A DNA stretch of 64,000 nt from an uncultured Actinomycetes bacterium (GTDB taxonomy: Bacteria > Actinomycetota > Coriobacteriia > Anaerosomatales > CAVRZR01). Both the position numbers and the translations under genes were made by a program. The notes beneath the pieces are model-generated. The model worked only from the letters and a program-made list of their open reading frames with translations, did no database searches and had not been told where the DNA came from. This document shows positions 4,687-33,100 of this stretch, piece by piece. Location of the stretch: contig CAVRZR010000003.1 in NCBI GenBank assembly GCA_963725795.1, forward strand, positions 387,359 to 451,358, written 5' to 3'. Within the stretch, counting starts at the first letter, position 1. Every line of letters starts with the position of its first letter.

Positions 4687-4764
4687 CGTGAAGGTTTACC
4701 CCGTGCGGGGACGGTCCCGGCAGACCACCGTGCGGGGTCAGTAGCAGACAAGGGTCGCGCACAC

Positions 4765-7757: not shown

Positions 7758-7824
7758 TATGCCGGGTTCGGAACAGGTATGAGGCGTTAGCTTTTTACGA
7801 GCAAGCGAAGGAGGTATGGAAGGC

Positions 7825-9213: not shown

Positions 9214-9237
9214 CGCAAGGAAGGAGGGAAGACGTAA

Positions 9238-12997: not shown

Positions 12998-14416
12998 GTG
13001 ACTGTCTCGTCCGAGATTGAACCTTCGGCAAGTGGCTATGGGGCCTGGGCCTCATCGGGAATCCATTCGAGCCTCATGAACCCTTTGAGGAGTACGACGA
13101 CCCGGGCGTCAAGCTCATCGCGCATGCGGCCGCGAACACGTTCCTCTGCGTCGTGGACCGGATCGCAGACGAAGCCGAGCCGGCTCCGATCTGGATCGAG
13201 AAGGCAGGCGATCTGCCGGCGGCGTACTATCTGGCTCCGCTTGCCGAATCGTTGGGCGTCCTCGGCTCCAACAGCGCAGCTCACGACATCATCCCGGCTT
13301 ACGTTCCGCTCGACACGATGCGCATGGGGCGCGTTCGGGCGGCGCTGTCGGCTGTTGCCGAGCGCATCGCGGGCGTGGACGTCGATCTTACCCTCGCCAT
13401 CTGGCTCGGCAAGACGCTCGAGAATGCTGACGACAGCCTCGAGGAATACGCCGCAATCTCCGAAAGCGACCTGGACGGGCTGATACAAGGCCCTGCGGTC
13501 GGATCCGAAAGGCACGATGGAGCGCTACCTGGGCGCGTGCGAGGAAGAGCGAGAGGGCCTCAACGACATCGATATGCTCATGCGTATCTCGACGGCCCGA
13601 ATCGAAGCCCTGGACGCCGACCCGGAGGAGACTGCTGAGGCGAAGACGACCGAAGCGCCCGACGATCAAATGTCAGAAGTCTTCACCCAATCGCTCGCTC
13701 CTGTGCCGGAAGCGGATGCGGAGGGCAACGGTCAGCAGCCGGAGGAATCGGAACCGGACGACGATCTCCCGCGACGGGACGCCCTGGTCGCCTACTTCGT
13801 CGCGCATGTTACGAAGCACCTTTCTCCCGTGATCGCGCGCGCGATACGTGCCTATCGGGCGCAGGGGATCACATCGATGACCGAAGAGCTGAAGGTCACC
13901 AAAGCCCCAACGAAGACACTGGCCGCGCTCGTTCGCTTCGCGACGTGCCGCTACCGCAAGGTCGTCATACTGTTCGATCGCTTCGAGATGTGGCCGGCGA
14001 TCCCGCAGGATCTGCAGCTGAAGATGCTCGGCACCTTCTCGCAGCTGCGGTGGGCGTTGAGAGACGGTGGTCTGCTCGCATTCGTGGTCAAATCCGGCGA
14101 AGTCCGGGAGCTGGACGAGCAGTTCGGCAATGCAACACGGGTGGTATGGGATATGCCGGGGCTCGCCGAACTTGAGGGCAATGCGCCCCCATATGATCCT
14201 GGCTTCGCGCAGGCGTGGGTGGACGCCGCGACGCTGGCCGGTCGCGAGCCGATCGACATGTCCGCCGATCCGGTCACCAGAGTGATCGCCGGCTCAGACG
14301 GGTCCCTCAGGTCTGCGGCGATCCTTCTTGCGGCTGCAGTCGACGACGCTGCGAGGCGTGGGGCCTCCACCATCGACGCCGCTGCTGCCGAGGCCGCGCT
14401 CACGACCGGGGAGTAG
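12998..14416 (+). pseudogene. hypothetical cytoplasmic protein, degenerate AAA+/ORC-Cdc6-like (two frame changes as assembled)
   Basis: RBS AAGAGAAGAGAG, GTG 12998. GNPFEPHEPFEE near the N-terminus. No GxxxxGK(S/T) motif. Acidic low-complexity insert (EADAEGNGQQPEESEPDDD). VVILFDRFE Walker-B-like strand. C-terminal helix bundle GSLRSAAILLAAAVDDAARRGASTID reminiscent of an AAA+ lid. Confidence 0.3.
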
Positions 14417-14611: not shown

Positions 14612-15468
14612 ATGCCAAAGGGACCAGATACGTCGAACGAGCCGATTGCCCGATCCGACCGCCGGACACTGCTGTGGACGGTCGGGTCTATCGTCGCGCT
14701 CGCCCTGGTCATTTACGGCACGGCTGCTATCTCCGCGCCACGGGGCTCCGACACCCTCAAGGATCGTGCGTCGGTCGAGACCCCTTCCGATGGCGCAACC
14801 GCTACGAGCGCGTCGCTCTACGATCAGGCACTCCAGGCAGAGCGCGGCTGGAGACACGACGCGCGCTGCCGAACTGGCGCACCAGGCCACTGAGGCTGAT
14901 CCGGGGAACACCCGGGCCCTTCAGCTGAGTGTGAGATTGGCTTCAGCGCCCAGTGGCGAGAAAGGCGGCACCCAGCCGGTCGCAACATCACCCGAGCAGC
15001 CTGCGAAGACACCTGGATCGACAGCAGGCCCCCACGTCGAGCTCGGCGCCATCGCAACCGCGCGTCGCTAAGATCACTTCGTTGTTGCCGGTGTCGGTCG
15101 CCGGCTACTGGCTCGGCACGGTTCAGGCGGATTCGGAGGACGCAGTCCTGTCGGCGGAGCCGGACGTGGGCTCGGTTCCTTCACGCACGGTCGTTCGAGC
15201 GCTTCTGTGTGTTCACGACCGCAAGAGCGATGCAGCTGCGCTCGAGTGGGTCGACAAGATGAGCAGACGCGTATACGCGAAGGGCCTGAGCGACGTTTCC
15301 GTTGCCGGCTCTCCGGCGGTCTTCGGCACTGATGGCACTCGCCTTGCGTGGTGTGCGTACGCAAGTGGTCCCTACGTCTTCGAAGTTGTCGTCACGGCTT
15401 CGGCGAGCCCTGTCGCGGCGAAGCAAGTCACCCTCAAGCTCGCCGAGGCATTTCGTACGAAACGCTGA
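14612..15468 (+). pseudogene. membrane-anchored hypothetical protein, paralogous C-terminal domain to the 3650-4627 product (frame-disrupted)
   Basis: RBS AAGGAG, ATG 14612. TM helix LLWTVGSIVALALVIYGTAAI. TPR-like helix pair. C-terminal domain ...DRKSDAAALEWVDKMSRRVYAKG...FGTDGTRLAWCAYASGPYVFEVVV. Read through frames 2/3/1. Confidence 0.45.
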
Positions 15469-15483: not shown

Positions 15484-16807
15484 GTGAAAGCTCGACGCCT
15501 GCTACCCCTCCTCGCTCTTGCCCTTGCGTTGTCCGCTCTCGTACCTGTGGTTGCGGCGGCTGACGGCCCGAGCGCGCCTTCCCTGAGTCCCAAGACGATC
15601 CTGACCGAGGGCTTTGAGCAGCCGAGAGTCCCTCGTCGCCCCACTACCCGTTGAGCAGTCTAAGCTCGATCTACTTCGTCCCGGTACTGCGTGGTGGGGT
15701 CGAATTACCGCTGCAGGTTCCTACCGCACCGGTGCTTACGGTCTGTGGTGCGCCGGGGCACGAAGGGGACGTGGCCGACGTACCCCGTGAGACTCTGCCG
15801 GCTACGCCATCTTCACGGTCGACACCGCACAGTACTACTCTGCGTACGCGGACTTCTGGTACCGCATGCCGTCGCGCGGAGCAGCGGATCAGAACTCGTT
15901 CAGAATCGACTGGCTTGCCGACGTACCGGCGCGCAGAACCGGTACGTCCAAGACTTCGCCAAGACGAGCTCTTGGAGCCACCGCGTCATCGACGTCACGC
16001 CCACGTTGCTTTCGAGCAGCGAAGGACGGGAACCTGTCTCGCACGAACGGCATCGTTCGAATCCGTTGGAACGACTCCGCCGAGGGCGGTGCCCAATCAC
16101 CGATGACCGGCGCGGGACCGTGCGTAGACGACTTCGCGATCACAGGCTGGAAGTACGGACCCGTTCGGGACTTGGCGTGGACAGTGAGTCCCGCCTCCGT
16201 GACGCTCACGTGGAAGCGACCGTACCGGACAACCGCGAACACCGTTCTCGAGGATCGAACCATCGGCTATCGGGTCTTCCGTGCGGTGAGAGGGACGTCG
16301 ACCTGGACACAGGTGACGCCCTCGCTTCTGCAGAATGCCGGAGCGGCACTGACGTATACGGACAACTCTGTCTCGGCCGGGGTGCTCTACACATACGCGG
16401 TCCAGACATTCGACGCAGCAGGCGGGTACGGCATGCCCAAGCTGCTCGGACAGGCCCCGGCGACGCCTGCGCGCGTGAAGGCGTCGCTAAGCGCGCCGAA
16501 TCCCTCGGCGAGCAGGATGACGCGCAACCGATACTACTCGGCCTACGGTTTCCTCAAGCCTCGGCATACCGCTGGGACCTACCCGGTTCGCATCTATGCA
16601 TATCGCTGGGAGAAGTACCACGGCAAGTACCAGTGGAGATCGAAGGTCAGCTTCTCGGCTCGCGCCTACAACTACTCCACCTACACGATGTACAAGGGCA
16701 ACGTCCGCCTGACGGTCGCTGGTACGTGGAAGGTGCGCGCCTACCACACCGACTCGGGGCACCTCCCGACGTGGAGTGCCTACTCTCGCAACCTCTACGT
16801 GAAATAG
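15484..16807 (+). pseudogene. secreted protein with jelly-roll-like N-domain, fibronectin-III domain and C-terminal beta-domain (frame-disrupted in the 5' third)
   Basis: RBS CAGGAGG, GTG 15484. Signal peptide VKARRLLPLLALALALSALVPVVAAA. FN3-like segment VRDLAWTVSPASVTLTWKRP...YRVFRAV...YTDNSVSAGVLYTYAVQTFDAAG. Intact from about 16100 to TAG 16807. Confidence 0.5.
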
Positions 16808-17314
16808 CCCCGTTCGGCGCATCGAGCGACGATTCGACAAGCGTCGCATTCTGCCAGGAATGCGGGTTCGGCACGAAGCGCGGGCGCCCGGATTGCCTGA
16901 CTCCACGTGAGCTTGAGCGCAAACCACTTCTTCCACTATCGGTTTCTGCTGCTCAGCCCGTATAATCGATTCCAAATGCCCGCCGATTTGGCAACGCGGG
17001 CGGAAAGACGGCCGACCGAGTCTGCCGCCGGTCGATTGTGTGCTGCACGCCGCATCCGGCTGAAGGGCCCACGTGGAAGATAGCAACGCCCAAAGAACCT
17101 GCCTGGGGTCGACGGTGTTCGTGCAGCCCAGCCAGCCCTCGCGCGCTCGGACGGGTCGATGAGTAGACACGGGCGACATTCTCGTGCGTCGGGCGCTTCC
17201 CGGCTTCGGGTGTATGCGCGCGCTCACTCGCTTGCGCTCGTTGGAGCGGCCGTCATCGTGGCGCTGGCCATGGTGGTCATCGGCGCGATCGTGAGCGCTT
17301 CGGCGGCCGACACG

Positions 17315-20270
17315 CACGAGATCACGGCCTCTGCCGGCGCGGGAGGAACGATCTCGCCCTCAGGCGCCGTGACCGTCCCCGATGGGTCGACGGAGACCTT
17401 CACCATCACGCCAGCCAAGGGATACGTCGTAGCCGATGTGGTCGTCGACGGGGGCAGTCAGGGCGGCCTGCTTAGCTACGCATTTAGCAACGTCACTGCC
17501 GCGCACACGATTTCAGCGACGTTTGCGGTGGCCTCGGCAACCGGCGGCACCGTTACGGAGATTCTGGGCTATCGGATCCACCGGTTCACGACGACCGGTA
17601 CGTTCACGCCGAACGGTGCGGGCCTGATAGACGCCCTCGTCGTCGGAGGTGGAGGCGCAGGCGGCAGTGTTTCCGCGGTGGCGAACTACTACGCCGGCGG
17701 CGGCGGAGGAGGCGGGTTCCGCACTCAGACAGACGTGAGCCGTCGACTCCGCAACAAGCGTTGTCGTTGGCAGCGGGGGCATCGCCGCAGCCGGCGCGCC
17801 GGGCGGCTATGGAAGCTCTTCGGCATTCGGCTCGATCGTCGCGACAGGTGGCGGTGGTGGCGGTGCCGCGACCGGCTCCACGACAGTGTACGCCGGCCTC
17901 AGCGGAGGCTCGGGCGGCGGAGGAGCACGATTCGGGACGTCATACGGACCGGGCGGTCTCGGCGCGCTCGGGGAAGGCTCGGACGGAGCGGCAGCAGCGG
18001 CGAACCGAGGCGGCGGTGGTGGCGGTGCGAGCGCGGCCGCGACCACGCAGAATGGTGGCGCCGGGCAGTCAAGCACGTTCTCGGGCGCGACCGTTCGCTA
18101 CGCCGGTGGTGGCGGAGCAGGCGGGCTCACCGCCGGTACGGGCGCTGACGGCGGCGGCAACGGCGCGAGCACGGCGAACGGATCGCCGGGCGCCGTCAAC
18201 ACCGGTGGCGGCGGCGGTGGCGCCGGCACCGGCGGCGCCACGCCGAGAACCGGGGGCAACGGCGGCAGCGGCGTCGTGATCGTCCGCTATGCGATTCCCA
18301 CGTACGTAGTGACAGCCACAGCCGGAGTCGGCGGGACGATCTCTCCGAGCGGTGTGACGACTGTGAACGTCGGCGCGAATCAGTCCTACACGGTCGCAGC
18401 CAATAGCGGCTACTGCATCGTCGACGTGAAGGTCGACGGTGCGAGCCAGGGTCCCGTCTCGGGATACACCTTCAGCAACATCGCGGCGGATCACACGATC
18501 GCCGCCACCTTCGCGACCTTCCCGGCCACGGGTGGCAGCTCGCCCGTGCAGGATGGCACGCACGTCGTCCAGACGTTCACCTCCAGCGACGTGTTCACTC
18601 CGGTGGCGCCCCTGACGGCCGATGTCCTCGTTGTCGGAGGAGGAGGCGCGGGCGGAGGCAACTCAGCTAACGCAGGCTTCTACGGCGGAGGTGGGGGCGC
18701 CGGAGGATTCCGGGCTGCCACAGACGTCGAGGTGAGCGCGTCTGCGACAGTCACCGTCGGTCCGGGAGGTCTCGGCGCTTCGGCGGCGCGGGGCGGCTCG
18801 GGTGGCGCATCTTCGTTCGCGACGATCACCGCCGTGGGTGGCGGTGGCGGAGGCGCGGGCTCGGCGACGAATGCCGACGGTCTCGGCGGCGGGTCTGGAG
18901 GCGGCGGTGGCCACTACACCGCTAACGGCTCCGGCTGGTGCGGGGACATCCGCTGAAGGGAATGCGGGAGCAGCTGCCGCGTCCGGCCCCGATCGGGGCG
19001 GCGGTGGTGGCGGAGCGGGATTGGCGGCCACGTCGCAGAACGGCGGGGCGGGCCAATCCAGCAGCATTTCGGGCGCGAGCGTCACCTACGCCGGCGGCGG
19101 AGGTGCTGGCGCAGCGACTCCTGGGACCGGGGCAGCTGGCGGTGGCAACGGCAGCGGTGCAGGCAACGGATCCGCCGCTACCCCGAATTCGGGAAGTGGC
19201 GGCGGTGGCAGCGGCACGGGCAACGCCAATGCGCGCTCAGGCGGGAATGGCGGGAGCGGTATCGTGATCGTTCGCTACCAGCTGCCGTCCACGACCCACA
19301 CGATCGCCGCCTCTGCGGGCGCCGGTGGATCCATCTCGCCGAACGGGGTGGCTACGGTCTTCGCGGGCGGCAGCCAGACATATTCGATCACACCCAACAG
19401 CGGCTACTACATATTCGATGTCGAGGTCGACGGCGTGAGCCAGGGATCCGTTGTGGCTTACACCTTCTCGAATGTGACTTCGGACCACACGATCACGGCG
19501 ACCTTCGCCGCGCTACCAGCGAGCGGTGGTGGCACTATCACGCGCGACGGCGACTTTGTTGTGCATACGTTCACGAGTGGCGGCACCTTCGCGCCCGTCG
19601 TACCGGTCAATGCCGAAGTCCTGGTGGTCGCCGGAGGCGGCGGCGGCGGACGTCAGCCAGGCACCAACGGCAGGTTCGCCGGCGGCGGCGGCGCTGGCGG
19701 AGTGACGACCGCAACAGTTGCTGTTGCGTCGCCGGCCACCGTAGTTGTTGGTACTGGCGGGATAGGACCTGGCAACGTCAACCCGGGGTCTGACGGCGGC
19801 GCCTCTTCATTCGGCGCGGTCACTGCCGTGGGCGGAGGCGGCGGCGGGTCCCTGGCGGGGCGAAGCGGCGGATCCGGCGGCGGCGGTGGATGTACTTCTG
19901 CGGCCCAGGGCGTGGGCGGATCCGGCACGGCGGGGCAGGGCTTCGCGGGCGGATCCGGACTGACGAACACGGCCGCCGGTGGCGGCGGTGGCGCAGGAGG
20001 CATCGGCGCGGGAGGTGCGGTCGGCGGGCAGGGCGGCGTTGGCGGGAGCGGCACGCCGAGTTCCATCTCCGGCTCGCTGCTCTACTACGCGGGTGGAGGC
20101 GGCGGCGGCGGTGCGTCCGCCGGTGCCGGGGGAACCGGCGGCGGCGGGGCGGGAGGTGCCGGAGCATCAGCAGGAGCCAACGCGACCTTCTATGGCGGCG
20201 GCGGTGGCGGCGGCTCTCTCGGTGGCAGCGGCTACAGCGGCGTCGTTGTCGTCCGCTACGAGATCCCCAG
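17315..20270 (+). repeat. three tandem ~1-kb coding modules, each [InlB-B-repeat-like beta domain + ~230-aa glycine-rich domain]
   Basis: Module starts at about 17315, 18300 and 19294. B-repeat consensus: H(T/E)I(T/A)ASAGAGG(T/S)ISP(S/N)G...G(Y)...DV.VDG.SQG....YTFSNV...HTI.ATFA. Gly-rich consensus: TGG......H.FTS.G.F.P.....D/EVLVVGGGGAGG...GGNGGSG(V/I)VIVRY.(I/L)P. Confidence 0.7.
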
Positions 20271-21568
20271 CTACGCCGTCACGGCCACGGCGAGCGCCGG
20301 CGGTTCGGTGTCGCCGAGCGGCACGACGAACGTGCTCTACGGCGGAAACCAGACCTTCGCGATCACGTCCTGACGTCGGCCATCATACCGTTGACGTCCT
20401 CGTGGACGGCGTGAGCCAGGGCGCTCTGTCCGCGTACACGTTCTCGAGTGTCACGGCGAGCCACACGATCTCCGCGAGCTTCGCCGCGGACACCTTCACC
20501 ATAGCGACGGAACCGAGCGTGAATGGCACGATCACGCCGTCCTCGCCGACGGTGGAGTATGGCTCCAATCAGACGTTCCTGATCCAGCCGGATCCCGGCT
20601 ACCACGTCGCGGACGTCCTGGCTGACGGCGCGAGCCAGGGTGCGGTCAGCTCCTACACGTTCTACAACGTGAGCGCCGCCGGTCACACGATCTCGGCGGT
20701 GTTCGAGCTGGACGCAGCGACGGTGCTGGGAGTCTCCTCGGCGCACCAGCCTCCGGCAGCATTCGCTGCGCGCTCCAGCAGGCGCGCGGTGGATGGATTC
20801 ACACTCGCGCGCGTCTCAGGCTCGGATCCCATCTCGGCCACGGGCGTCACTGTCACGAACAGCGGTACGTCGCCTGAGGCGAACGTGAGCGGGGTCTATG
20901 TCTACCGTGACGACGGAAATGACGAGTTCGGGGTGCCCGACATCGCGCTGAACGTCACGGCCGGCAGCTTCAACAGTCCGACTGCGACGGTGACATTCGA
21001 CAGTCCGGAGTCCGTCGGCACCACGCCGACCCAGTACTGGCTGGTGTACGAGTTCGCGCCTCTCGCGAACGACGGTGTCACCACGGATTCGCGCATCGCC
21101 GAAGTGAACGCCGGTCCGATTCCGGTCGATTACACCGTGACGGCCGGCGCAACGTTCACCGTCGACGCCATTGGCCCCAGCGTGGCGATCGACGCTCCGA
21201 CGAATGACGCGACTCTCCTCGGCGCGTCCACCGTCATCTCCGGGACCGCGTCGGATTCCGGCTCCGGTGTAGGCCTGGTAGAGGTCTCGATACTGCGCTC
21301 CGACGGCAAGTTCTGGACGGGCTCCGATTGGTCTGCGACCCAGACGTGGCGCTCGGCGATCGGTACGTCCACGTGGACCTATGGCTGGGTCCTCGATGCG
21401 GAGCAGAGCGGTCTTCAGACCTACACCATCTCAGCGCGTGCGACCGACGGCGTCGGCACCGGGGGAGACGAGGCGCTCGTGACCGGTGTTCGGGTGGAGA
21501 ACTCCACCCCGATCGAAGTCTCCGACGTGCCTCCGCCGCACGTCAGTACCGGCGACGACACGGACGCG

Positions 21569-22396
21569 TGCGCGATGTGCCACCGCTCCCATACCTCGGC
21601 CTCGACCGATACATGGCAGAGCGGGGAGGCGTCGGCCGCGCAGCGGACGTCACTCAGTGTCGGAACCGGAACGTACGACGCCGGCATGTGCTACTCGTGT
21701 CACGGCGTCGAGTTGCTCGGTTCTGGGACGGACATCCAGACCCCATTCCAGAGCGGCTCCGGCCATGTCCTGGCCCCTGACACGAGCCCGTACGGGCCCT
21801 CCCCCAAGGAGTGCAGCGACTGCCACGATCCGCATGGCACCGACCATACCTCCGGCGGGACGCCATATCCGGCGCTCCTACGCTCAATGGACGCGAGCGG
21901 AAGTCCCGTATACCAAGGCGACGTCTACTGCGTGAGCTGCCATGAAGTGCGACCCGGCAGCACGTGGGACGGGTTGGGCGTCTGGCGCACAACGGCGCAC
22001 GCGGGCATGCCCGGCCCCGCTTCGGGCACGGGCATCGTCTGCTCCGACTGTCACGACCCGCATGGGTCACCGAACGCCCCGACGATCGCGCCTCGCGTGT
22101 ATCCGCCCTCAGCGCCGGCTACGGCGGCGGTGACGGCGAACGATCGGACGCTGTGCGTGGCGTGCCACGCCGAAGCGACGGCCACCTGGGGTGGCTCCTC
22201 GCTCTACTCCTCCAGCTCGCATGCCTCGTCCAACGCGACCGTCGGCATTCCTGGCGAGTGGCCGGATCCGGATGCCTCTCGAAAGGTCGGAGAGTGTCAG
22301 GTCTGTCACAACCCGATGGGAGAGGATGACGGTACGGGACGCGCCCTTCCCAAGCTCACGCGGATCTCGGGCGAGAACCTCTGCTACACGTGCCAC
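21569..22396 (+). other. heme block 1 of giant protein: 8 CXXCH motifs
   Basis: CAMCH (21569-21583), CYSCH, CSDCH, CVSCH, CSDCH, CVACH, CQVCH, CYTCH (22382-22396), all in frame 2. Confidence 0.85.
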
Positions 22397-22479
22397 GGTG
22401 CCACCGGCCCCGCCCGGACGGACATGCGCACGGTAGCGGTCGAAACCACGCTGACGAGCGCGTTCGAGGTCGTGGCGAG

Positions 22480-23610
22480 CTTCAGCGCCGCCGGTGACAT
22501 GCCGGACTACGGGCGCGTGCTCTATTACTCGCAAGACAGCTCCGCGACACCGCCGAGGCCTCTCCTGGGCGCGAGGCCGCTCCGGACTGCGGCGGGCGTC
22601 GGCGCCGTCGCGGCGGGTGACATCGACGGAAACGGTCGTGCCGAGATCCTCGTGGCAGACTCCGCCTCGCTGCAGATAGACGTCTTCGCGTACGACAAGC
22701 TTCGCGGCGTGTCCGACCGTGTCGGTCCGGGTCTCCTGCCGGTGGCCGCCACTGCCGAGTACCTCGCTGTTGGTGACGTGCTGCTGGACTCATGGGGATT
22801 GCCGGAAGTCGTGATGATCGACAGGGGCGCGAACGAGCTGTACGTCTATCGCTACGCAGCCGCGACGTGGACTCTGGTCGATGGGCCGATCGCGGTCGGC
22901 AACGTGAGCGGGATGACCATCGGTGATGTGACCGGGACGTCTCAGGCCGATGTCGTGCTCACCGTTCACGGGCCGGATCGTGTCGTCGTCCTGTCGGAGG
23001 ACTCAGGCCACCTGCTCGAGAGCTCAGTGTTCGGTGCGCGCGCGGGCGTGCGCGGTCCGAGCATCGGCGATGTGTTGTCGGAGCCGGGCAATGAGATCGT
23101 CGTGGCCAATGCCGACGAAACGAGCGACACCGTGTCGGTCTATCGTGCCGACGGCACGACGCTCGGCCACCTCAACGGTGATGAGCTGCCCGGTCAGCGT
23201 GCGACGGCGTCCGCGATAGGAGACGTCCTGCCTGAGGTTCCCGGCCCCGAGGTTCTTGTTTCTTACGCGGATCCTCTGGCGGGCAGTCGGCTGGACGTGT
23301 TCTCGCTCGATGCTACGACCGGTGTGGGCACCGTGGTCGGCTACGACGCGGGAGAGCGTTTCAACCCGGCTGCGATCGCGGTCGGGGACGTGAATGGAGA
23401 CGGGCACAGCGAAGCGCTGCTAGCAAACGCCGGGGCGTTCACGCGTGACGGATCGCGCGAGCGCGCCTCGGTCTCTGTGTTCCGCGCAAACGGAACGGGG
23501 GACGGGCTTGTCGGGCCTCAGATCCTCTCTGGCGGTGGCGCGGAACTCGCGAGCGGGACTGTCCAAGTCGCGATCGCGGACGTGGGAGCGACCCCTCAGA
23601 CTGGACACCC
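22480..23610 (+). other. FG-GAP/VCBS-type beta-propeller region of giant protein
   Basis: About seven repeats of the GD(I/V)(D/N/T)G.G..(E/D)(I/V/L)(L/V)V type: GDIDGNGRAEILVAD, GDVLLDSWGLPEVVMID, GDVTGTSQADVVLT, GDVLSEPGNEIVVAN, GDVLPEVPGPEVLVSY, GDVNGDGHSEALLAN, IADVGATPQ. Confidence 0.6.
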
Positions 23611-23674
23611 GATCGGCGCGGTCCCGGATACGCATGTGTCGACCGAGACGTTCACTCTCGCTCGCCACGTCGAG

Positions 23675-24382
23675 TGCGTCGACTGCCACTCTCACGACGC
23701 TGACAGCGCGGACGCCTCCGCCCCTGTCGTCTTCGGCGCGCTGAAGGGCGCGTGGGGAGTTGCGGTTCAGAATCAGTCATCGGCTGCATACGACCTGACA
23801 CAGCAGCAGGGAGTCCGCTACGAGTACGAGCTCTGCCTGAAGTGCCATTCGCAGTGGTCGGCTCTGGAAGGCAGCGCCGACCTGGCGTCTCTGGTAAACA
23901 CGCGGAACGCGTCGGTGCATGCGATCGAAGAGCCGTCCGCCGACGCGAGCATCCCGGCTGGTTCGTTCCAGGACGGCTGGAGTGACGACTCGGCGCTTTA
24001 TTGCACCTCGTGTCATGGGAACTCGAATCCTTCAGAACCCGCAGGCCCGCATCGCTCGGGTGAGGCGCCCATCCTCGTTCGACCGTACTGGGGCGTCGCC
24101 CCGGACGATGCGGCGGGTCTGTGCTACGAATGTCACCGATATGCCGTGTATCTGACGGGAGCGGAAGACACGTTGGCGGATCCGAAGAGCGCCTTCTACC
24201 TGTCCACGGGTTCGGGCTCCACGGGCCAAGAGGCGCTGCACTCCTACCACGCAGATACACTCGGGTTCGCCTGCGGCTCGTGTCACGTCTCACACGGCTC
24301 GCGGCAGGAGCTGCACTTGCTGCGTTCGGACATCGGCTACACGCCCGATGCGAGCGGCGGCTCGTGCGCGAATCAGTGCCAC
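23675..24382 (+). other. heme block 2 of giant protein: 5 CXXCH plus 1 CX3CH
   Basis: CVDCH (23675-23689), CLKCH, CTSCH, CYECH, CGSCH, CANQCH (24365-24382). Confidence 0.8.
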
Positions 24383-24451
24383 GGAACCGGAGGCGCGACC
24401 AGGTCGTACCTCAGGCCGTAGCCGCGAACGCCTGCGACAGTCGGTGGTCGG

Positions 24452-25510
24452 CTAGCGGACCACGTAGACAGCCGTTCCCACGTTCACGATGTCGTACAAC
24501 TCCTCGACGTTCGCGCGCAGCATTCGGATGCAACCGTGGCTCGCGGCGGTGCCGATGGAGCCGACCTTGTTCGTGCCATGGATGCGGATTCCGGACGCAT
24601 TCAGGTTCAACGCCCGCGTGCCGAGCGGGTTGCCCGGCCCGGGAGGGATATACGCGGGCATGCTGGCGGCCCATGCACTCCCCGGATTCGACCATGAAGG
24701 CCTGTACCGCTTGAGCACGATCTTGAACTGCCCGAGCGGAGTCGGGTAGCCCGGCATTCCGACGGCGACGCGGTACGACTTCACGAGTTTCGCGCCGTTG
24801 TACAAGTAGAGACGCCGCTCCGACTTGTCCACCACGATCGTCTTGCCGAAGGAGGCCTCCGTGACTTTCGGTTTGATGATCGTGACCGGCACGGCAACGG
24901 TCTTCGGCAGCTTCTTAGAAGAGACGATCGCTGTCCTGATCGCGGTCGTGGCCTTCCACCGTTGCAGCTGCTCGCCCTTGACTGAGGCGCGTATCGACAC
25001 ACGGTTGCCGGAGACTTTGCGTACCGCATTCACCGGTGCCTTGTCGATCTTCTTGGCAAGACCATTCACCCAGACTTGGATTGCGGTGGTGTTCACGGTG
25101 TACCGTGGCTTGATGTCGACGGTCTGCGTGGTGCCCGCCAGGCTCTCAATGACGCGCGAGGCGAACGTGCTCGCCTCCCGCACCCGGAACGCATCTTCGA
25201 TCATCGCGCTCTGGTTGACGGTCACGAACTTGCCGGCGTCCATGAAGTAGGTCCGCTTGTAGCGAACGTAGACTGGTCGCTGAAGCCAGTCGGCAACGCT
25301 CGTCTCGATACAAGCGCTCAGTTGTTCCCTCGTCATGCCGCCGATGTCTATGGGCGAACCCACAGGACGCGTGAGGCGGACACCCTCAGGCACGGTTTGG
25401 GCGGTGTCGAGGTCCGAGGCAACAGCCCATGCCATCGTTCCGGACAACATGAGCAACGCGATCGCGAGCAGACCTACGAGGAACCGTCTCGCCTTGCTGG
25501 GTGCTTCCAT
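24452..25510 (-). CDS. L,D-transpeptidase (YkuD domain) with N-terminal anchor
   Basis: MEAPSKARRFLVGLLAIALLMLSG anchor. C-terminal YkuD signature GIRIHGTNKVGSIGTAASHGCIRM. ATG taken at 25510; the ORF is open to 25651. Confidence 0.85.
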   Translation of the reverse strand: MEAPSKARRFLVGLLAIALLMLSGTMAWAVASDLDTAQTVPEGVRLTRPVGSPIDIGGMTREQLSACIETSVADWLQRPVYVRYKRTYFMDAGKFVTVNQSAMIEDAFRVREASTFASRVIESLAGTTQTVDIKPRYTVNTTAIQVWVNGLAKKIDKAPVNAVRKVSGNRVSIRASVKGEQLQRWKATTAIRTAIVSSKKLPKTVAVPVTIIKPKVTEASFGKTIVVDKSERRLYLYNGAKLVKSYRVAVGMPGYPTPLGQFKIVLKRYRPSWSNPGSAWAASMPAYIPPGPGNPLGTRALNLNASGIRIHGTNKVGSIGTAASHGCIRMLRANVEELYDIVNVGTAVYVVR

Positions 25511-25758
25511 CAAGTCCTCCTGCCGAGCGCCTGGGCGATCACCCGATATGTGCCCCGAAGCGGCTCGCGCCTGAAGCGAGCTGCCACTCGGGCGTATTCT
25601 ACAATGGATTGCGAGAGCAGATTGCCTCCCCGGGTGACGGCTCATCAGCAAAATCGAGGCCGCAGCCTCAGGGATTGCTCCGGTTATGGCCGTGGACGCT
25701 GATCGCGGTAGGGATCCGGCCGTTCGTGAAGATGGTGCAGGGATCAGGAGAGCGCGAC

Positions 25759-26138
25759 GTGCCCAGATCCATCCTTGTGGTAGATGATGCGGTCTTCATG
25801 CGGCGGCTCCTCCGCGCGGTGTTCCTTCAAGCCGGCTACCAGGTCCACGAGGCGGTAGGGGGACGAGACGCGTCGAGAAGTACGCCGAACTCCGACCGGA
25901 TCTTGTCACGATGGATCTGGCGATGCCGGGAATCGGGGGCTTTGACGCCATCGCTCGCATCCGCGCACACGATTCGGACGCGCGCATCGTGGTCATCAGC
26001 GCGGAGACCTCCGATGCGGCAGCCTCTCGAGCCACTGAGCTGGGGGCGGTCGCCTTCGTCCGCAAGCCGTTTCAGCCGGAAACCGTGCTCGACGCCGTGC
26101 GGAAGGGACTGCTCGTGCCGCGAGCCCCTCGCTGCTAG
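25759..26138 (+). pseudogene. CheY-like single-domain response regulator (one frame change near 25865)
   Basis: VPRSILVVDDAVFMRRLL...(frame 1) continues as VEKYAELRPDLVTMDLAMPGIGGFDAIARIRAHDSDARIVVISAE...AFVRKPF (frame 3). The shift lies in the G-run gtaggggga. Confidence 0.7.
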
Positions 26139-26143
26139 ACTGG

Positions 26144-27694
26144 TTGGTAGTCCTGCAACAGATGCGAGAGCGGAGGGGCATGGAGGCCGCCGAGTCTTCG
26201 GCGAGGGCGCTCAAGGGGGTCAGGGCTGCGACCAGCATGGCGATCGTCGGCGGAAGCGATCACGCCGCGGCCATTGTGCGGCTGCTGGTGAAGCTTCCCG
26301 GCGTCTCGATCACCTCCGTCTGTGCGGAAGCCTCCCAGCCTGCCGGCCGCTTTGCCGAGGCATCGGGAATCAGGCTCGTGGGCGAGCCACTGGACGCGCT
26401 CGCGTCAGATCCTGCACCGGACATCGTTCTCGACCTCTCGGAGGACGTGGTTACGCGCGCCGCGCTTGAGAGCGCGCTGCCTCCCAGCACCGAACTCCTG
26501 GGCGGAGCCTCTGCCGATCTACTCCTGGAAGTGCTCAGCGGCGCGGTTCACCAGCCGCCCGAGCACCCCCGGCAGTTCTCCGAGCTCGCGCAATCTGAGG
26601 CGATCGGCCGCGCTCGCCGCATGGAGGCGTCGAATGCCGCGCTTGCGCGTGCGAATCGTGATCTGGAAGCGCGTCTGGCCGAGGTCTACTTCATGCACGA
26701 GTTCGTGAAGGCGCTGGTCGCGTATCGCCGGATCGAGGACGTGTCGAGCGTCGTCGTTGATGCGTGCGCGGGTATCGTGGGCGCCGACCTCACGGCGGTC
26801 TACATTCTGGATCGCGAGGAATGGGTACTCCGGCTGGCCCAAGTTCAGGGCAGACCCATGTCGGGTGTCACCGCCGAGGTCCAGCTCTCGGATCCGCTGT
26901 TCGGACTCGCTGTCTCTGAGGGCAGCGCACGACTCGAAGACGGGCAGGCCTGCTCGGCCTGGCTGGCATCGGGTTCCGGTCGCGTTCGCACGCAGGTGGC
27001 ACTTGCCCTGCGGGCCGGAGGCGAGCCGATCGGCGTGTTGGCGCTGGGTTGGTCCGCACACCGCGGGTTGGAGACGCCGGAACTCGAGAGACTGCGCGTG
27101 ATGGCCGACCAGTCCGCTCTGTCGTTGCAGAACGCGCTGTTGCACGCAGAACTCGAGCAGATGTCGGTCACGGATCGCCTTACGGAACTCTTCAATCACG
27201 GCTACGTGACGCAGCGCTTGGATCAGGAGCTAGGGCGTGCCGGCCGCTTCGGCCACCCGCTCTCCGTGATCATGCTCGACATCGATGACTTCAAGGGGTT
27301 CAACGATCGCTACGGCCACATCATCGGGGACGAAGTGCTGCGGTCTGTGAGCAAGCTCATACGCGAGAACCTCCGTGAGATGGACGTTGCCGCCCGATAT
27401 GGCGGCGAGGAGTTCCTCGTTCTCGTGCCGGAGACAGGGCCCCGGGGCGCGCGAGCGGTTGCCGATCGTATCCGTGAGAGTGTTGCCAACAACGTGTTCT
27501 TGCGCGACGCCGCTGGGGAAGACGTTCACGCCTCAGTCTCGGTCGGCGTCGCGACCTTCCCTGCTGCGGGCGAAACGGTCGAGTCGCTCATCAGGGCCGC
27601 CGACGATGCGATGTACGCCGCCAAGCGCGCGGGTAAGAACCGGGTGACGCTATCGGACTTGAACCCCGACACGGGGGCCGCCGAGGAGGTCTGA
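26144..27694 (+). CDS. diguanylate cyclase: N-terminal domain, coiled coil, GAF, GGDEF (GGEEF active site, RxxD I-site)
   Basis: DRLTELFNHGYV...MLDIDDFKGFNDRYGHIIGDEVL...LREMDVAARYGGEEFLVLVPE. The preceding about 150 aa are GAF-like. Start codon uncertain (26144/26162/26180). Confidence 0.85.
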   Translation: MVVLQQMRERRGMEAAESSARALKGVRAATSMAIVGGSDHAAAIVRLLVKLPGVSITSVCAEASQPAGRFAEASGIRLVGEPLDALASDPAPDIVLDLSEDVVTRAALESALPPSTELLGGASADLLLEVLSGAVHQPPEHPRQFSELAQSEAIGRARRMEASNAALARANRDLEARLAEVYFMHEFVKALVAYRRIEDVSSVVVDACAGIVGADLTAVYILDREEWVLRLAQVQGRPMSGVTAEVQLSDPLFGLAVSEGSARLEDGQACSAWLASGSGRVRTQVALALRAGGEPIGVLALGWSAHRGLETPELERLRVMADQSALSLQNALLHAELEQMSVTDRLTELFNHGYVTQRLDQELGRAGRFGHPLSVIMLDIDDFKGFNDRYGHIIGDEVLRSVSKLIRENLREMDVAARYGGEEFLVLVPETGPRGARAVADRIRESVANNVFLRDAAGEDVHASVSVGVATFPAAGETVESLIRAADDAMYAAKRAGKNRVTLSDLNPDTGAAEEV

Positions 27695-27719
27695 GGCCGT
27701 TGCGGCCGACGCTATCCGG

Positions 27720-28061
27720 ATGAGCCTGAAGAGCGCCCTTCGCGCGCTACCTGACGACCGTGTCACGTTCACCACGACTGAGACCGTGGTGCGGTATCTC
27801 GATGGCCACCGGGCGGTCAGCGTCGACGCCTTCAAGATCGCCTCGGTCACGGGGCTCGACCCTGCCCGGATCCAACAGATCCTCACAGTCCTGGCCGAGG
27901 GCGGAGTGCTAGACTGCTTTGGCGAACCGCCCGGGTACAAGTTCGTCCGGGACAAGGTGCTGGAGATAGAGACCCAACTCTTCCTTCGGTCATCGCACAG
28001 CCACACGGATTCGCTCCAGTCGAACGTCGAGCGCTACAGACGGCTCTACGGCGGCAGGTAG
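27720..28061 (+). CDS. small hypothetical protein (possible winged-helix)
   Basis: 113-codon ORF in the same orientation, immediately after the cyclase. Segment IQQILTVLAEGGVLD resembles a recognition helix. No firm motif. Confidence 0.35.
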   Translation: MSLKSALRALPDDRVTFTTTETVVRYLDGHRAVSVDAFKIASVTGLDPARIQQILTVLAEGGVLDCFGEPPGYKFVRDKVLEIETQLFLRSSHSHTDSLQSNVERYRRLYGGR

Positions 28062-28086
28062 CGCGAGATACCCGGAGCGAGGGACG

Positions 28087-28983: not shown

Positions 28984-29045
28984 GCAGACCGGCAATGCTA
29001 GCCTAGAATGGTTCGACTGCATTCGATCATCCAGGGAGGCCTGTT

Positions 29046-30101: not shown

Positions 30102-30223
30102 CCGAATTCCCGTTCGAGGCCAGCTCGCTTCACTGAGAAGTGCCCGTCATCGCTACAGTGACCCTCTCATGCTGCCGAAAATCGTCACGTGGGGGTACAA
30201 GCTGGGGTACGAGGGAGTGTGAG

Positions 30224-32785: not shown

Positions 32786-33100
32786 GTGGCGGACCGTCGC
32801 GTCGACTACTACCGCGTCCTGCAAGTCCGTCGCGACGCGGAACCTGAAGTCATCGAGCGCGCGTACAAGGCGCTCTCGCTCAAGTACCACCCTGACGTCG
32901 CTCCGCCGCATCAAAGACCTGCTGCGACGAAGCGGATGCAACTCATCAATGAGGCGTATGGAACCCTCAAGGACCCTTCGGCGCGCCGACGCTACGACGC
33001 GACGCTCCCGCCGGAGGGGATGCCGCGTACTGCGTGGGACGAGTTCTGGGAGAAAGGTCTTGTCGGGCTCTTCCGGGAACGCTACTCCGCTCGGCGCTAG
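32786..33100 (+). CDS. J-domain (DnaJ N-terminal domain only) protein
   Basis: DYYRVLQVRRDAEPEVIERAYKALSLKYHPDV...INEAYGTLKDPSARRRYD. Confidence 0.7.
   Translation: MADRRVDYYRVLQVRRDAEPEVIERAYKALSLKYHPDVAPPHQRPAATKRMQLINEAYGTLKDPSARRRYDATLPPEGMPRTAWDEFWEKGLVGLFRERYSARR

What the first reader, a model, noticed from the sequence alone, without database searches (positions are those of the whole stretch)
17159..24421. About 2,420-codon chimeric surface protein fusing adhesin-like domains, glycine-rich modules, an integrin-like propeller and 14 hemes
Seen: four ORF pieces join sensibly into one protein. In order it contains:
- an N-terminal anchor helix;
- 3 x [InlB-B-repeat-like domain + ~230-aa Gly-rich module];
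- two more B-repeat domains;
- an unassigned ~150-aa domain;
- an Ig-like domain (IDAPTNDATLLGASTVISGTASDSGSGVGLVEVSI...);
- 8 CXXCH motifs;
- an FG-GAP propeller of about seven blades;
- 5 CXXCH plus 1 CX3CH.

Established knowledge: B-repeat, Ig-like and FG-GAP domains are extracellular adhesion or scaffold domains, and CXXCH marks covalent c-type heme.

Inference: this is a cell-surface terminal reductase whose long stalk could carry the heme domains beyond the wall or S-layer. I do not know of a described cytochrome with this combination. There is no LPXTG or other C-terminal sorting signal, so anchoring would be through the N-terminal helix.
Basis: partly seen in the sequence, partly recalled or inferred. 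Interest (0 to 1): 0.85.

Follow-up and report, generated by a model that had tools for sequence, protein, structure and literature searches.

The report
Long-stalked 14-heme surface cytochrome gene
This is one very long gene for a secreted 14-heme electron-transfer protein of an iron-reducer-like Gram-positive bacterium (class Coriobacteriia). A rare 1,400-residue array of adhesin-like and phage-fibre-like domains sits in front of a heme–propeller–heme core that is common but uncharacterised, and the gene looks split into four only because of what are most probably three one-base assembly errors.

Summary
Four + strand ORF pieces (17159-24421) join into a 2,419-residue protein once single extra bases are removed at about 17738, 18936 and 20368. 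All 28 cysteines of the C-terminal part lie in 13 CXXCH motifs plus one CX3CH.

The heme–propeller–heme core is not unique. It is a conserved family of about 1,000 residues: 72 protein clusters, 66 with the same heme count. Members occur mainly in Coriobacteriia/Anaerosomatales MAGs and in the obligate Fe(III) reducer Parvivirga hydrogeniphila. They sit at the end of a syntenic cluster encoding an FeS protein, smaller cytochromes, a membrane protein, an NHL protein and, in some genomes, a NiFe hydrogenase.

Only 5 of the 72 carry a long N-terminal extension, and this would be the longest. An uninterrupted 1,665-residue relative (P0003) has the same architecture with one module instead of three.

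The frameshifts are most likely consensus errors. The adjacent 14 kb holds about 61 more indels, almost no in-frame stops, and 42-70% identity to intact orthologs after frame correction.

The N-terminal helix looks like a cleavable signal peptide rather than an anchor.

Verdict: real; a new long-stalk variant of a known kind; moderately interesting.

The parts
17159..17311 (+). N-terminal signal peptide or signal anchor (residues 1-51; basic n-region, 21-residue hydrophobic stretch, ASA|AD)
   Evidence: Read from the sequence. Relatives have AXA-type signal peptides at this position. SignalP was not available.
17312..17530 (+). B-repeat-like domain 1 (divergent InlB B-repeat, Flg_new_2 type)
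   Evidence: Aligns with B2-B5. Pfam Flg_new_2 hits on B3 and on B4+B5.
17531..18302 (+). Glycine-rich module 1 (Gly_rich_2); contains frameshift site 1 (extra base at about 17738)
18303..18521 (+). B-repeat-like domain 2
18522..19293 (+). Glycine-rich module 2 (Gly_rich_2; best Pfam stretch is residues 480-707); contains frameshift site 2 (extra base at about 18936)
19294..19518 (+). B-repeat-like domain 3
   Evidence: Flg_new_2 covers profile positions 1-71 of 73, E = 0.0012, 19.2 bits, below the 23.6-bit cutoff.
19519..20274 (+). Glycine-rich module 3 (Gly_rich_2); modelled fold resembles phage tail-tip and fibre proteins and the ALK glycine-rich domain
   Evidence: AlphaFold2 pLDDT 82.7. 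Foldseek hits 9d93_Q, 7ypx and 7lir. phrog_2295 E = 4e-55.
20275..20491 (+). B-repeat-like domain 4; contains frameshift site 3 (extra base at about 20368)
20492..20710 (+). B-repeat-like domain 5
   Evidence: Flg_new_2 34.1 bits for B4+B5, above the cutoff.
20711..21178 (+). Unassigned domain of about 155 residues; conserved in the extended relatives P0003, P0006, P0007 and P0033 (present twice in P0006/P0007)
   Evidence: No Pfam hit. Conservation read from the sequences.
21179..21511 (+). Bacterial Ig-like domain (Big_7)
   Evidence: PF17957, 31.7 bits.
21512..22465 (+). N-terminal heme domain with 8 CXXCH motifs
   Evidence: Seven of the eight motifs are invariant across 51 relatives and the first is at least 90% conserved.
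22466..23578 (+). Seven-bladed FG-GAP beta-propeller with two DxDxDG-type loops (DIDGNG, DVNGDG)
23579..24421 (+). C-terminal heme domain with 5 CXXCH plus the invariant CX3CH (CANQCH), and the stop codon
1..16804 (+). Upstream part of the conserved cluster, riddled with indels in this assembly: 4Fe-4S protein (3-698), 6-heme cytochrome (~700-2001), polytopic membrane protein (2035-3648), unknown (3666-4594), TPR (4645-5691), NHL propeller (5851-7357), NiFe hydrogenase small subunit (7605-9210) and large subunit (9250-11414), second 6-heme cytochrome (11450-12790), unknown (13045-14401), small protein (14953-15468), surface protein (15695-16804)
   Evidence: Synteny and frameshift-aware alignments. 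Pfam on intact orthologs. Heme counts come from the orthologs.

Best explanation
**What it is.** 17159-24421 encodes one secreted protein of 2,419 residues. It is the terminal, cell-surface multiheme cytochrome of a conserved extracellular electron-transfer gene cluster of an Anaerosomatales-like member of the Coriobacteriia.

**Working core (about the last 970 residues).**
- It belongs to a conserved family: an octaheme domain, a seven-bladed FG-GAP beta-propeller, then a hexaheme domain with an invariant CX3CH site.
- Enough invariant histidines are present for bis-His ligation of all 14 hemes.

**N-terminal extension in this organism.** An array of about 1,400 residues precedes the core: 3 x (B-repeat + glycine-rich domain with a phage-fibre-tip-like fold), 2 B-repeats, an unassigned domain and an Ig domain.

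**Proposed mechanism (inferred).**
1. Electrons from H2 (the cluster's NiFe hydrogenase) or from other donors enter through the FeS/membrane module and the small 6-heme cytochromes.
2. They are passed to the 14-heme protein.
3. That protein reduces insoluble or extracellular acceptors such as Fe(III) minerals.
4. The N-terminal array acts as an adhesin or holdfast that binds wall polymers, a partner protein or the substrate surface, rather than as a conducting stalk.

**Frame changes.** The three frame changes are single-base insertion errors of the assembly, not biology.
For: **One gene**
- There are exactly three one-base events against the intact ortholog P0003, and none in the last 4 kb.
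- The repaired repeats align with no gap at the junctions.
- P0003 is an uninterrupted 1,665-residue ORF on a Logan (public sequencing-run) contig. It has the same domain order and an in-frame upstream signal sequence.
- The closest relative, L020, shares the N-terminal array at 65% identity.

**Errors, not decay**
- About 61 further indels lie in roughly 13 kb of neighbouring cluster genes. Control genes to the right have 0-2 each.
- Corrected-frame identity to intact orthologs is 42-70%.
- Only about one in-frame stop was seen. About 3% of random substitutions would create a stop, so decay with at least five substitutions per indel (a ratio I assumed, not measured) predicts at least 9.
- A compensating -1/+1 pair 22 nt apart leaves the conserved residues in the shifted frame.
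- L020 shows the same island-limited damage at different positions.

**Cytochrome**
- 13 CXXCH plus 1 CX3CH against 0.03 expected by chance.
- The same count is found in 66 of 72 relatives.
- The motifs and about 16 further His are invariant or nearly invariant in 51 sequences.
- Pfam hits: Paired_CXXCH_1, Cytochrome_C7 and MtrC/MtrF domains II/IV.

**Propeller:**

**Role in electron transfer**
- The syntenic cluster holds an FeS protein, cytochromes, a membrane protein, an NHL protein and a hydrogenase.
- In Parvivirga hydrogeniphila the family member ends a cluster of Mo-oxidoreductase, FeS protein, cytochrome, membrane protein, NHL protein and a CW_binding_2 protein. That organism is an obligate Fe(III) reducer growing on H2 or formate, and its cytochrome clusters were proposed as the determinants (PMC9686372).

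**Adhesin nature of the array:** Foldseek hits to the mycobacteriophage Bxb1 tail tip, the cyanophage Pam3 fibre and the ALK glycine-rich domain; PHROG tail-fibre families.
Against: - No reads are available, so the frameshifts cannot be proven to be errors. Their sites are not at homopolymers, and the damage is oddly confined to the island.
- No experiment links any family member to Fe(III) reduction, and Anaerosoma tenue has many cytochromes yet does not reduce Fe(III) (PMC9686372).
- The heme domains were modelled at low confidence, so heme wiring across the propeller is unknown.
- The stalk has no cofactors, so electron delivery to a distal heme domain is unexplained.
- Signal peptide cleavage was not predicted with a dedicated tool.
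- The source organism could not be identified.
Confidence: 0.7

Rival explanations
1. The frameshifts are real. The whole respiratory island (hydrogenase, small cytochromes, NHL protein, N-terminal part of the big gene) is decaying, and the big gene is a pseudogene or survives only as the 1,336-residue C-terminal product that the public annotation calls.
For: - The damage is confined to 1-20.4 kb while ClpC, LysRS, CysRS and EF-Tu are intact.
- The sites are not at homopolymers.
- The public gene call is 1,336 residues.
Against: - There are about 64 indels but only about one in-frame stop, where at least 9 are expected under decay.
- Corrected-frame identity stays at 42-70%.
- A compensating indel pair keeps the conserved residues in the shifted frame.
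- The relative L020 has the same pattern at different sites. That would require parallel, very recent decay in two lineages.
- The 1,336-residue call starts inside a B-repeat and has no signal peptide, so it could not be exported for heme attachment.
Confidence: 0.13
2. The four pieces are independent neighbouring genes (adhesins plus a cytochrome), not a fusion.
For: ORF lists and the public annotation split them.
Against: - The pieces break in the middle of domains.
- Only the first piece has a signal sequence, and the later pieces lack plausible starts.
- The joins restore repeat alignments with no gap at the junctions.
- P0003 is a single ORF with the same order.
Confidence: 0.03
3. It is one intact surface cytochrome, but its job is not mineral Fe(III) reduction. 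It could serve electron uptake from or delivery to a partner cell or electrode, reduction of humics, sulfur compounds or other metals, or the propeller could be a catalytic or substrate-binding site.
For: - The relative EMTCatB1 (P0030) is, from my own recollection, from an electromethanogenic biocathode; this was not checked here.
- Family members occur in many non-iron habitats.
- The array of phage-fibre-like domains suggests binding to cell-surface glycans.
- A. tenue carries many multiheme cytochromes without reducing Fe(III) (PMC9686372).
Against: The only cultured organism shown here to carry a family member is the obligate Fe(III) reducer P. hydrogeniphila. No catalytic residues are evident.
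Confidence: 0.2

Closest known systems
Coriobacteriia/Anaerosomatales 'cytochrome c3 family protein' of about 1,000 residues (for example MX659_07245 of Parvivirga hydrogeniphila Es71-Z0120 = P0029; P0015, P0016, P0022)
   Same: - The same 8-heme / FG-GAP propeller / 5+1-heme core at 36-64% identity over about 78% of the query.
- The same 13 CXXCH + CX3CH count.
- The same position at the end of the FeS–cytochrome–membrane–NHL cluster.
   Different: In these proteins the signal peptide is followed directly by the first heme motif. They lack the ~1,400-residue B-repeat / Gly-rich / Ig array. None has been studied experimentally.
P0003 (1,665 residues, Logan run SRR24079448) and L020 (MAG MFD05942.bin.3.284)
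   Same: The same full architecture, including B-repeat + Gly_rich_2 modules, the unassigned domain and the Ig domain. P0003 is 50% identical over 100% of the C-terminal 1,231-residue query, and L020 is 64-67% identical.
   Different: P0003 has one module instead of three. L020's copy is itself chopped by at least 17 indels.
CFE_2239 of Carboxydocella thermautotrophica 019 (17-heme cytochrome fused to an adhesin-like part; PMC6085454)
   Same: The concept is the same: a secreted Gram-positive multiheme cytochrome fused to adhesin-like domains and proposed as a terminal Fe(III) reductase.
   Different: It has a different heme count, the adhesin part lies C-terminal to the heme domain, and no FG-GAP propeller or Gly_rich_2 domains are reported. 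Homology to this protein was not tested here.
MtrC/OmcA/MtrF decaheme cytochromes (Shewanella) and OcwA (Thermincola potens)
   Same: They are surface terminal reductases. The Pfam MtrC/MtrF domain II/IV model hits at 53.6 bits. Non-heme beta domains alternate with heme domains.
   Different: There is no detectable sequence relative in the PDB. The beta insertion here is a 7-bladed propeller rather than a Greek-key barrel. This protein has 14 hemes, and the host is Gram-positive with no outer-membrane porin.
FG-GAP propellers (integrin alpha, ITFG2, CRTAC1)
   Same: A seven-bladed fold, FG-GAP repeat profiles and two DxDxDG-type loops.
   Different: Here the propeller is embedded between two multiheme domains of a bacterial protein. 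Calcium binding and the ligand are unknown.
Gly_rich_2 (PF21722) proteins; phage tail-tip and fibre proteins (Bxb1 9d93_Q, Pam3 7ypx); ALK/LTK glycine-rich domain
   Same: Sequence family (158 bits) and predicted fold.
   Different: Most of the listed homologs are single-domain proteins of about 440 residues (more than 2,200 homologs found). Here three copies alternate with B-repeats and are fused to a cytochrome.

Membership tests
Multiheme c-type cytochrome | Several CXXCH (or variant) covalent heme-binding motifs, far above chance | tested here: met
   13 CXXCH plus 1 CX3CH. All 28 core Cys lie in these motifs. Shuffles give a mean of 0.03 and a maximum of 1.
Multiheme c-type cytochrome | Conserved distal axial ligands (His or Met) for each heme | tested here: inconclusive
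   About 16 further His are invariant or nearly invariant in 51 relatives. That is enough for bis-His ligation, but pairing them with hemes needs a structure.
Multiheme c-type cytochrome | Export signal, so that heme attachment happens outside the cytoplasm | tested here: met
   The N-terminus has a basic region, a hydrophobic stretch and an ASA|A site. Relatives have AXA signal peptides. This was judged by eye; no predictor was run.
Multiheme c-type cytochrome | Covalently bound heme in the mature protein, and a maturation system in the genome | not testable with these tools
   No ccm or ccs gene was identified among the window genes I scanned. CcmE and CcmF lie 8 kb downstream in P. hydrogeniphila. 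Heme staining is needed.
Coriobacteriia 14-heme FG-GAP cytochrome family (unnamed; labelled 'cytochrome c3 family protein') | Collinear core of 8 CXXCH, propeller, 5 CXXCH and a terminal CX3CH | tested here: met
   E = 0 to 1e-144 for 72 clusters, 36-64% identity, and 66 of 72 have the identical motif count.
Coriobacteriia 14-heme FG-GAP cytochrome family (unnamed; labelled 'cytochrome c3 family protein') | Position at the downstream end of the FeS / cytochrome / membrane protein / NHL cluster | tested here: met
   Synteny with L001, L003, L006, L007, L014, L015, L018, L023 and L083.
FG-GAP / integrin-alpha-type beta-propeller | Seven four-stranded blades matching FG-GAP repeat profiles | tested here: met
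   FG-GAP_3 50 bits in 4 stretches and FG-GAP 29.8 bits. 29 strands at pLDDT 80-97. ITFG2 and CRTAC1 are the top fold matches.
FG-GAP / integrin-alpha-type beta-propeller | Calcium-binding DxDxDG loops that are occupied | not testable with these tools
   Two such motifs are present (DIDGNG, DVNGDG). Occupancy is unknown.
Divergent InlB B-repeat (Flg_new_2, PF18998) | Domain of about 70 residues matching the profile end to end above the gathering score | tested here: met
   B4+B5 score 34.1 bits against a cutoff of 23.6, covering profile positions 2-70 of 73. B3 alone scores 19.2 bits, below the cutoff, but covers the full length.
Gly_rich_2 (PF21722) | Profile match above the cutoff | tested here: met
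   158 bits, three stretches. The fold resembles phage fibre-tip proteins and the ALK glycine-rich domain.
MtrC/OmcA-type outer-surface decaheme cytochromes | Four-domain layout (beta-barrel, pentaheme, beta-barrel, pentaheme) forming the staggered heme cross | tested here: not met
   Only the local Pfam domain II/IV model hits. There is no PDB sequence relative. The layout here is 8 hemes, propeller, 6 hemes. It may work like MtrC but is not a member.
Sortase-anchored (LPXTG) surface protein | C-terminal LPXTG, hydrophobic stretch and basic tail | tested here: not met
   The C-terminus is ...GGATRSYLRP. The only LPXTG-like match is an internal LPASG at residue 785.

The most novel reading that the evidence does not exclude
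The protein is a self-contained 'adhesin-on-a-cytochrome' device for Gram-positive cells. Three domains borrowed from phage receptor-binding proteins, together with B-repeats, grip a defined glycan or mineral surface on the cell's own wall, on a partner cell or on an iron mineral. An integrin-like propeller wedged between an 8-heme and a 6-heme chain acts as a docking or gating site for the electron acceptor or for a partner cytochrome. This would be a structurally new class of terminal reductase, with length variants (1,000 to 2,400 residues) tuned to wall or matrix thickness.
Probability: 0.3. Interest if true: 0.75.

Novelty: new variant of a known kind. Interest (0 to 1): 0.55.

Why it matters
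How Gram-positive bacteria move respiratory electrons across a thick wall to minerals is known in molecular detail for very few proteins (OcwA, and OmhA/Smh of Carboxydothermus).

This family matters for several reasons:
- It is widespread in the subsurface and soil lineage Anaerosomatales/OPB41.
- It sits in a P. hydrogeniphila gene cluster that appears to be the one proposed to confer Fe(III) reduction on that organism.
- No structure has been solved for any sequence relative of its heme domains.
- I found no published description of a cytochrome that places a seven-bladed FG-GAP propeller between two heme chains.

The natural length series (core only; +1 module; +3 modules; fn3-type stalks) offers ready-made variants for testing whether surface reach or adhesion limits extracellular electron transfer.

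There is also a practical lesson. This assembly, and at least one related MAG, contain a respiratory island so dense in indels that automated annotation splits or misses the hydrogenase, the cytochromes and the N-terminal 1,080 residues of this protein. Metabolic inference from such MAGs will under-call this capacity.

Tried and rejected
- **Finding the source record.** Exact-protein look-ups failed, and cluster look-up gave no accession or name. The organism is therefore inferred only from relatives.
- **Independent reads across junction 3.** A pattern tolerant of both versions found nothing in metagenome contigs. A protein-based metagenome scan gave one weak locus.
- **GC3 and codon-usage gene calling**. 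This was too noisy in the left 20 kb, which in hindsight is explained by the indels.
- **Counting in-frame stops from plain blastx HSPs**. Wrong-frame and opposite-strand shadow hits swamped the result, so I replaced it with a frameshift-aware alignment script.
- **Homopolymer or motif association of the frameshift sites**. None was convincing; ACGT occurred near 6 of 16 sites, which is not significant.
- **Recent repeat collapse as the cause.** Rejected, because the modules align collinearly but are clearly divergent, at roughly half of the positions.
- **Programmed frameshifting.** Rejected, because the sites are not conserved in L020 or P0003 and dozens more occur in neighbouring genes.
- **PDB sequence search for the heme domains** found no cytochrome relative. 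AlphaFold2 models the heme domains poorly, so heme geometry could not be analysed.
- **Supplement of PMC9686372** did not list locus tags. Equating P0029's cluster with that paper's 'second cluster' therefore rests on gene content only.

Full report

ORF listing shows four overlapping + strand ORFs: 17159-18148, 17886-18956, 18802-20373 and 19979-24421. Their frames step 2, 0, 1, 2. The open stretches overlap, so each hand-over is possible.

At each hand-over the leaving frame turns into arginine-rich nonsense. The entering frame continues the same domain.

Removing one base at each of 17738, 18936 and 20368 gives a 2,419-residue protein with no stop. The three B-repeat + Gly-rich modules and the five B-repeats then align with no gap at any of the junctions.

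I wrote a frameshift-aware protein-to-DNA alignment (BLOSUM62, frameshift penalty 14). Against the intact relative P0003 it finds exactly three events, each one extra base, at about 17738-17750, 18936 and 20368. It finds none in 20420-24418.

**2. Domains**

- Pfam finds Gly_rich_2 three times (158 bits), Paired_CXXCH_1, Cytochrome_C7, MtrC/MtrF domain II/IV and Cytochrom_c3_2.
- On isolated segments it finds Flg_new_2 (the divergent InlB B-repeat; 34.1 bits for B4+B5), Big_7 (31.7 bits), FG-GAP_3 (50 bits, 4 stretches) and FG-GAP.
- The ~155-residue domain has no Pfam hit.
- There are 8 CXXCH, then 5 CXXCH plus CANQCH. All 28 Cys of the core lie in these motifs. Shuffles give 0.03 CXXCH on average.
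- AlphaFold2 on a 51-sequence alignment models the middle ~370 residues as 29 strands, i.e. seven blades, at pLDDT 80-97. The heme domains come out poorly, which I take to reflect the absence of hemes from the model.
- Foldseek puts the FG-GAP propellers ITFG2 and CRTAC1 on top. A profile search of PDB sequences finds only FG-GAP proteins and no cytochrome relative.
- There is no C-terminal LPXTG.

**3. It is a member of a large, unstudied family**

A search with the C-terminal 1,231 residues returned 72 strong hits (E from 0 down to 1e-144) at 36-64% identity, most of them 980-1,040 residues long. The few names they carry are 'cytochrome c3 family protein', 'predicted CXXCH cytochrome family protein' or 'hypothetical protein'. 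They come from Coriobacteriia, Anaerosomatales and Actinomycetota MAGs, from strain EMTCatB1 and from Coriobacteriia bacterium Es71-Z0120.

Key facts about the family:
- 66 of 72 have exactly 13 CXXCH + 1 CX3CH.
- In 51 aligned members, seven of the first eight CXXCH motifs and all six C-terminal motifs are invariant, and the first motif is at least 90% conserved. About 16 further histidines are invariant or nearly so.
- A scan of one genome per species found 220 stretches that passed the tblastn check. About 30 of the 80 kept loci cover the whole core; the rest match only part of it, in other phyla.
- Only 5 of the 72 proteins have more than 150 residues before the first heme motif: this one, P0003, P0006, P0007 and P0033.
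- Twelve carry a C-terminal extra domain of about 160 residues. P0035 carries 797 residues of Ig-like repeats.

The heme–propeller–heme combination is therefore common. The long N-terminal array is the rare part, and at 1,469 residues this would be the longest seen.

**4. The fusion is real elsewhere**

P0003 (1,665 residues) is a single ORF on a 7.6-kb Logan contig (public run SRR24079448). Its order is B-repeat, Gly_rich_2, B-repeat, the unassigned domain, Ig, 8 hemes, propeller, 6 hemes. An in-frame upstream extension supplies a signal sequence. Its flanking genes are homologs of window 13042-14401 and 14953-15468.

P0006 and P0007 (2,042 and 2,067 residues) use fn3-type stalks and two copies of the unassigned domain instead.

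**5. Genomic context**

blastx against intact ORFs of the fetched relatives shows that window 1-24.4 kb is a syntenic cluster. Pfam on intact orthologs supports the assignments. The genes in order are:

| Window position | Gene |
|---|---|
| 3-698 | 4Fe-4S protein |
| ~700-2001 | 6-heme cytochrome |
| 2035-3648 | polytopic membrane protein |
| 3666-4594 | unknown protein |
| 4645-5691 | TPR protein |
| 5851-7357 | NHL propeller |
| 7605-9210 | NiFe hydrogenase small subunit |
| 9250-11414 | NiFe hydrogenase large subunit |
| 11450-12790 | second 6-heme cytochrome |
| 13045-14401 | unknown protein |
| 14953-15468 | small protein |
| 15695-16804 | surface protein |
| 17159-24421 | the big cytochrome |

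In Parvivirga hydrogeniphila Es71-Z0120 the 977-residue family member ends a related cluster: molybdopterin oxidoreductase, FeS protein, cytochrome, membrane protein, unknown protein, NHL protein, and a 1,223-residue protein with CW_binding_2 repeats. CcmE and CcmF lie 8 kb downstream.

That organism is an obligate Fe(III) reducer growing on H2 or formate, with no quinones detected. The authors singled out a cytochrome cluster containing a molybdopterin enzyme as the likely determinant of Fe(III) reduction (PMC9686372). By gene content it appears to be this cluster, but I could not map locus tags.

**6. Are the frameshifts biological?**

The same frameshift-aware alignment was run on the neighbouring genes against intact orthologs:

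| Gene | Frameshifts | In-frame stops |
|---|---|---|
| FeS protein | 4 | 0 |
| First 6-heme cytochrome | 8 | 1 |
| Membrane protein | 0 | 0 |
| Unknown at 3.7 kb | 1 | 0 |
| TPR | 6 | 0 |
| NHL | 13 | 0 |
| Hydrogenase small subunit | 11 | 0 |
| Hydrogenase large subunit | 15 | 0 |
| Second 6-heme cytochrome | 2 | 0 |
| Unknown at 13 kb | 1 | 0 |

That is about 61 frameshifts in roughly 13 kb, of both signs, with corrected-frame identity of 42-70%.

Eight control genes at 24.4-36.5 kb behave differently:
- Four have no events.
- Two have single events at the alignment's N-terminal edge, probably artefacts of using stop-to-stop subject ORFs.
- The DUF362/Fer4 gene has one clear frameshift at 33766.
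- The L,D-transpeptidase gene has two frameshifts and one stop in its poorly conserved upstream part.

ClpC, LysRS, CysRS and EF-Tu further right are present as full-length ORFs; the last three match database proteins exactly.

Three observations argue for errors rather than decay:
1. **Too few stops.** About 2.8-3.3% of random substitutions in these genes would create a stop. Neutral decay with at least five substitutions per indel (my assumption from general knowledge of bacterial pseudogenes) predicts at least 9 stops. About one is seen.
2. **A compensating pair.** At 4510/4532 a -1/+1 pair 22 nt apart leaves the conserved residues (GGPVSV against EGPIAV in the ortholog) in the shifted frame and a stop in the nominal frame. 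That is what a local consensus slip produces.
3. **An independent relative with the same pattern.** L020 (a MAG labelled MFD05942.bin.3.284, 64-67% identical) has the same architecture. It carries 12 events in the first 1.2 kb and 5 in the last 3.2 kb of its ortholog, at different positions. Its hydrogenase and small cytochrome are also chopped. Four downstream genes checked the same way are clean apart from single edge events.

Other relatives, such as L001 and L014, have intact genes.

I conclude, at about 85% confidence, that the three frame changes are consensus errors. The most likely setting is a low-coverage or strain-variable island of a long-read assembly. This last step is inference, because the sequencing platform of the window's contig is unknown and the sites are not at homopolymers. 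Why the damage is confined to the island remains unexplained.

**7. The N-terminus and the array**

Core-only relatives start with classical signal peptides ending in AXA just before 'APHV...C..CH', for example ...PAFAFA|ATAPHV and ...APALA|ETAPHV. The window protein has a basic n-region, a 21-residue hydrophobic stretch and ASA|AD. No predictor was available.

The Gly_rich_2 module was modelled with 40 homologs at pLDDT 82.7 and pTM 0.80. It matches mycobacteriophage Bxb1 tail-tip chains (26-28% identity), the cyanophage Pam3 fibre and, more weakly, the ALK/LTK glycine-rich domain. It also hits PHROG families of tail fibres and phrog_2295 at E = 4e-55. More than 2,200 homologs exist. The listed ones are mostly single-domain proteins of about 440 residues, and a few carry a prepilin N-terminal domain.

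These are compact binding-type domains. The array therefore reads as an adhesin or holdfast rather than an inert spacer.

**8. Mechanism**

Shown:
- a secretion signal;
- 14 conserved heme sites;
- a seven-bladed FG-GAP propeller between the heme domains;
- adhesin-type domains in front;
- a conserved cluster with a hydrogenase, an FeS/membrane module and small cytochromes.

Inferred:
- Electrons from H2 or other donors pass through the cluster's small cytochromes to this protein at the cell surface, and from there to extracellular acceptors such as Fe(III) minerals.
- The array holds the protein on the wall, on a partner protein or on the substrate.
- The propeller, with two DxDxDG loops, is a docking site.

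Unknown:
- the heme geometry;
- how electrons reach a heme domain held far from the membrane by a stalk without cofactors.

**9. Comparison and novelty**

The kind of protein is known. It is a Gram-positive surface multiheme cytochrome fused to adhesin-like parts, as proposed for CFE_2239 of Carboxydocella (PMC6085454), and it is functionally comparable to OcwA and MtrC.

The core family is present in databases but, as far as I could find, has not been described. A full-text search for FG-GAP together with multiheme returned only an anammox paper. It also has no solved relative.

This gene is a long-stalk variant of that family, so I rate it a new variant of a known kind. Interest is moderate, not 0.85:
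- The striking 'chimera' is mostly a family trait plus a modular extension that is also seen in P0003.
- In this assembly the gene needs three repairs.
- In its favour, the family is a good and tractable target for studying Gram-positive extracellular electron transfer.

Noticed in passing
window 1-20400 (and L020 1-16500): An island dense in indels. There are about 64 frame changes in cluster genes against about 1-3 in the next 12 kb, with almost no in-frame stops, and the sites are not at homopolymers. The same island-limited pattern appears in the related MAG L020 at different positions. Probably a consensus-error artefact of a low-coverage or strain-variable region, but this is unexplained.
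   Followed up: partly
window 35618-37792 (+): An intact 724-residue membrane-anchored NapC/NirT-type multiheme cytochrome with 21 CXXCH and 3 CX3CH motifs. It is a candidate membrane entry point for the electron-transfer chain.
   Followed up: partly
window 7605-11414 (+): NiFe hydrogenase small and large subunit genes are embedded in the cytochrome cluster, as also in L007, L015, L018 and L023. The stop-to-stop open frames of the L018 orthologs are unusually long (537 and 827 residues, upper bounds on protein length). In the window these genes are broken by 11 and 15 frameshifts.
   Followed up: partly
window 24452-31327: Cell-wall genes lie directly downstream and are conserved there in relatives: an L,D-transpeptidase (YkuD + PG_binding_4, minus strand), a PG_binding_1 protein and an NlpC/P60 hydrolase. 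A GAF-GGDEF cyclase and a T2SSE-type ATPase are also present. This may be relevant to getting a 250-kDa cytochrome through the wall.
   Followed up: no
window 33097-34285 (-): A DUF362 + 4Fe-4S gene is split by a single frameshift at 33766. The orthologs in L020 and L014 are single ORFs. This shows that indels also occur outside the island.
   Followed up: partly
window 3666-4594 (+), about 4510 and 4532: A compensating -1/+1 pair of indels 22 nt apart. The conserved residues are encoded in the shifted frame and a stop appears in the nominal frame.
   Followed up: yes
window 43725-44462 (+): A Rex-like redox-sensing regulator (Put_DNA-bind_N + CoA_binding). PMC9686372 notes that a Rex-type repressor accompanies a cytochrome cluster in P. 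hydrogeniphila.
   Followed up: no
L083 6212-9883 (Parvivirga hydrogeniphila): A 1,223-residue protein with CW_binding_2 cell-wall-binding repeats and BNR/Sortilin-type propeller hits sits immediately upstream of the 977-residue family member. It is a possible wall-anchoring partner for the core-only cytochromes.
   Followed up: no
proteins P0011, P0013, P0017, P0021, P0028, P0031, P0054, P0059, P0063-P0065, P0072: Twelve family members carry a conserved C-terminal extra domain of about 160 residues after the CX3CH motif. Its function is unknown. P0035 instead has 797 residues of repeats after the motif.
   Followed up: no
window 37928-38004; 59350-63466: Six tRNA genes (Pro, Thr, Tyr, Thr, Met, Trp), five of which flank the EF-Tu gene. 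This is an ordinary housekeeping region.
   Followed up: no
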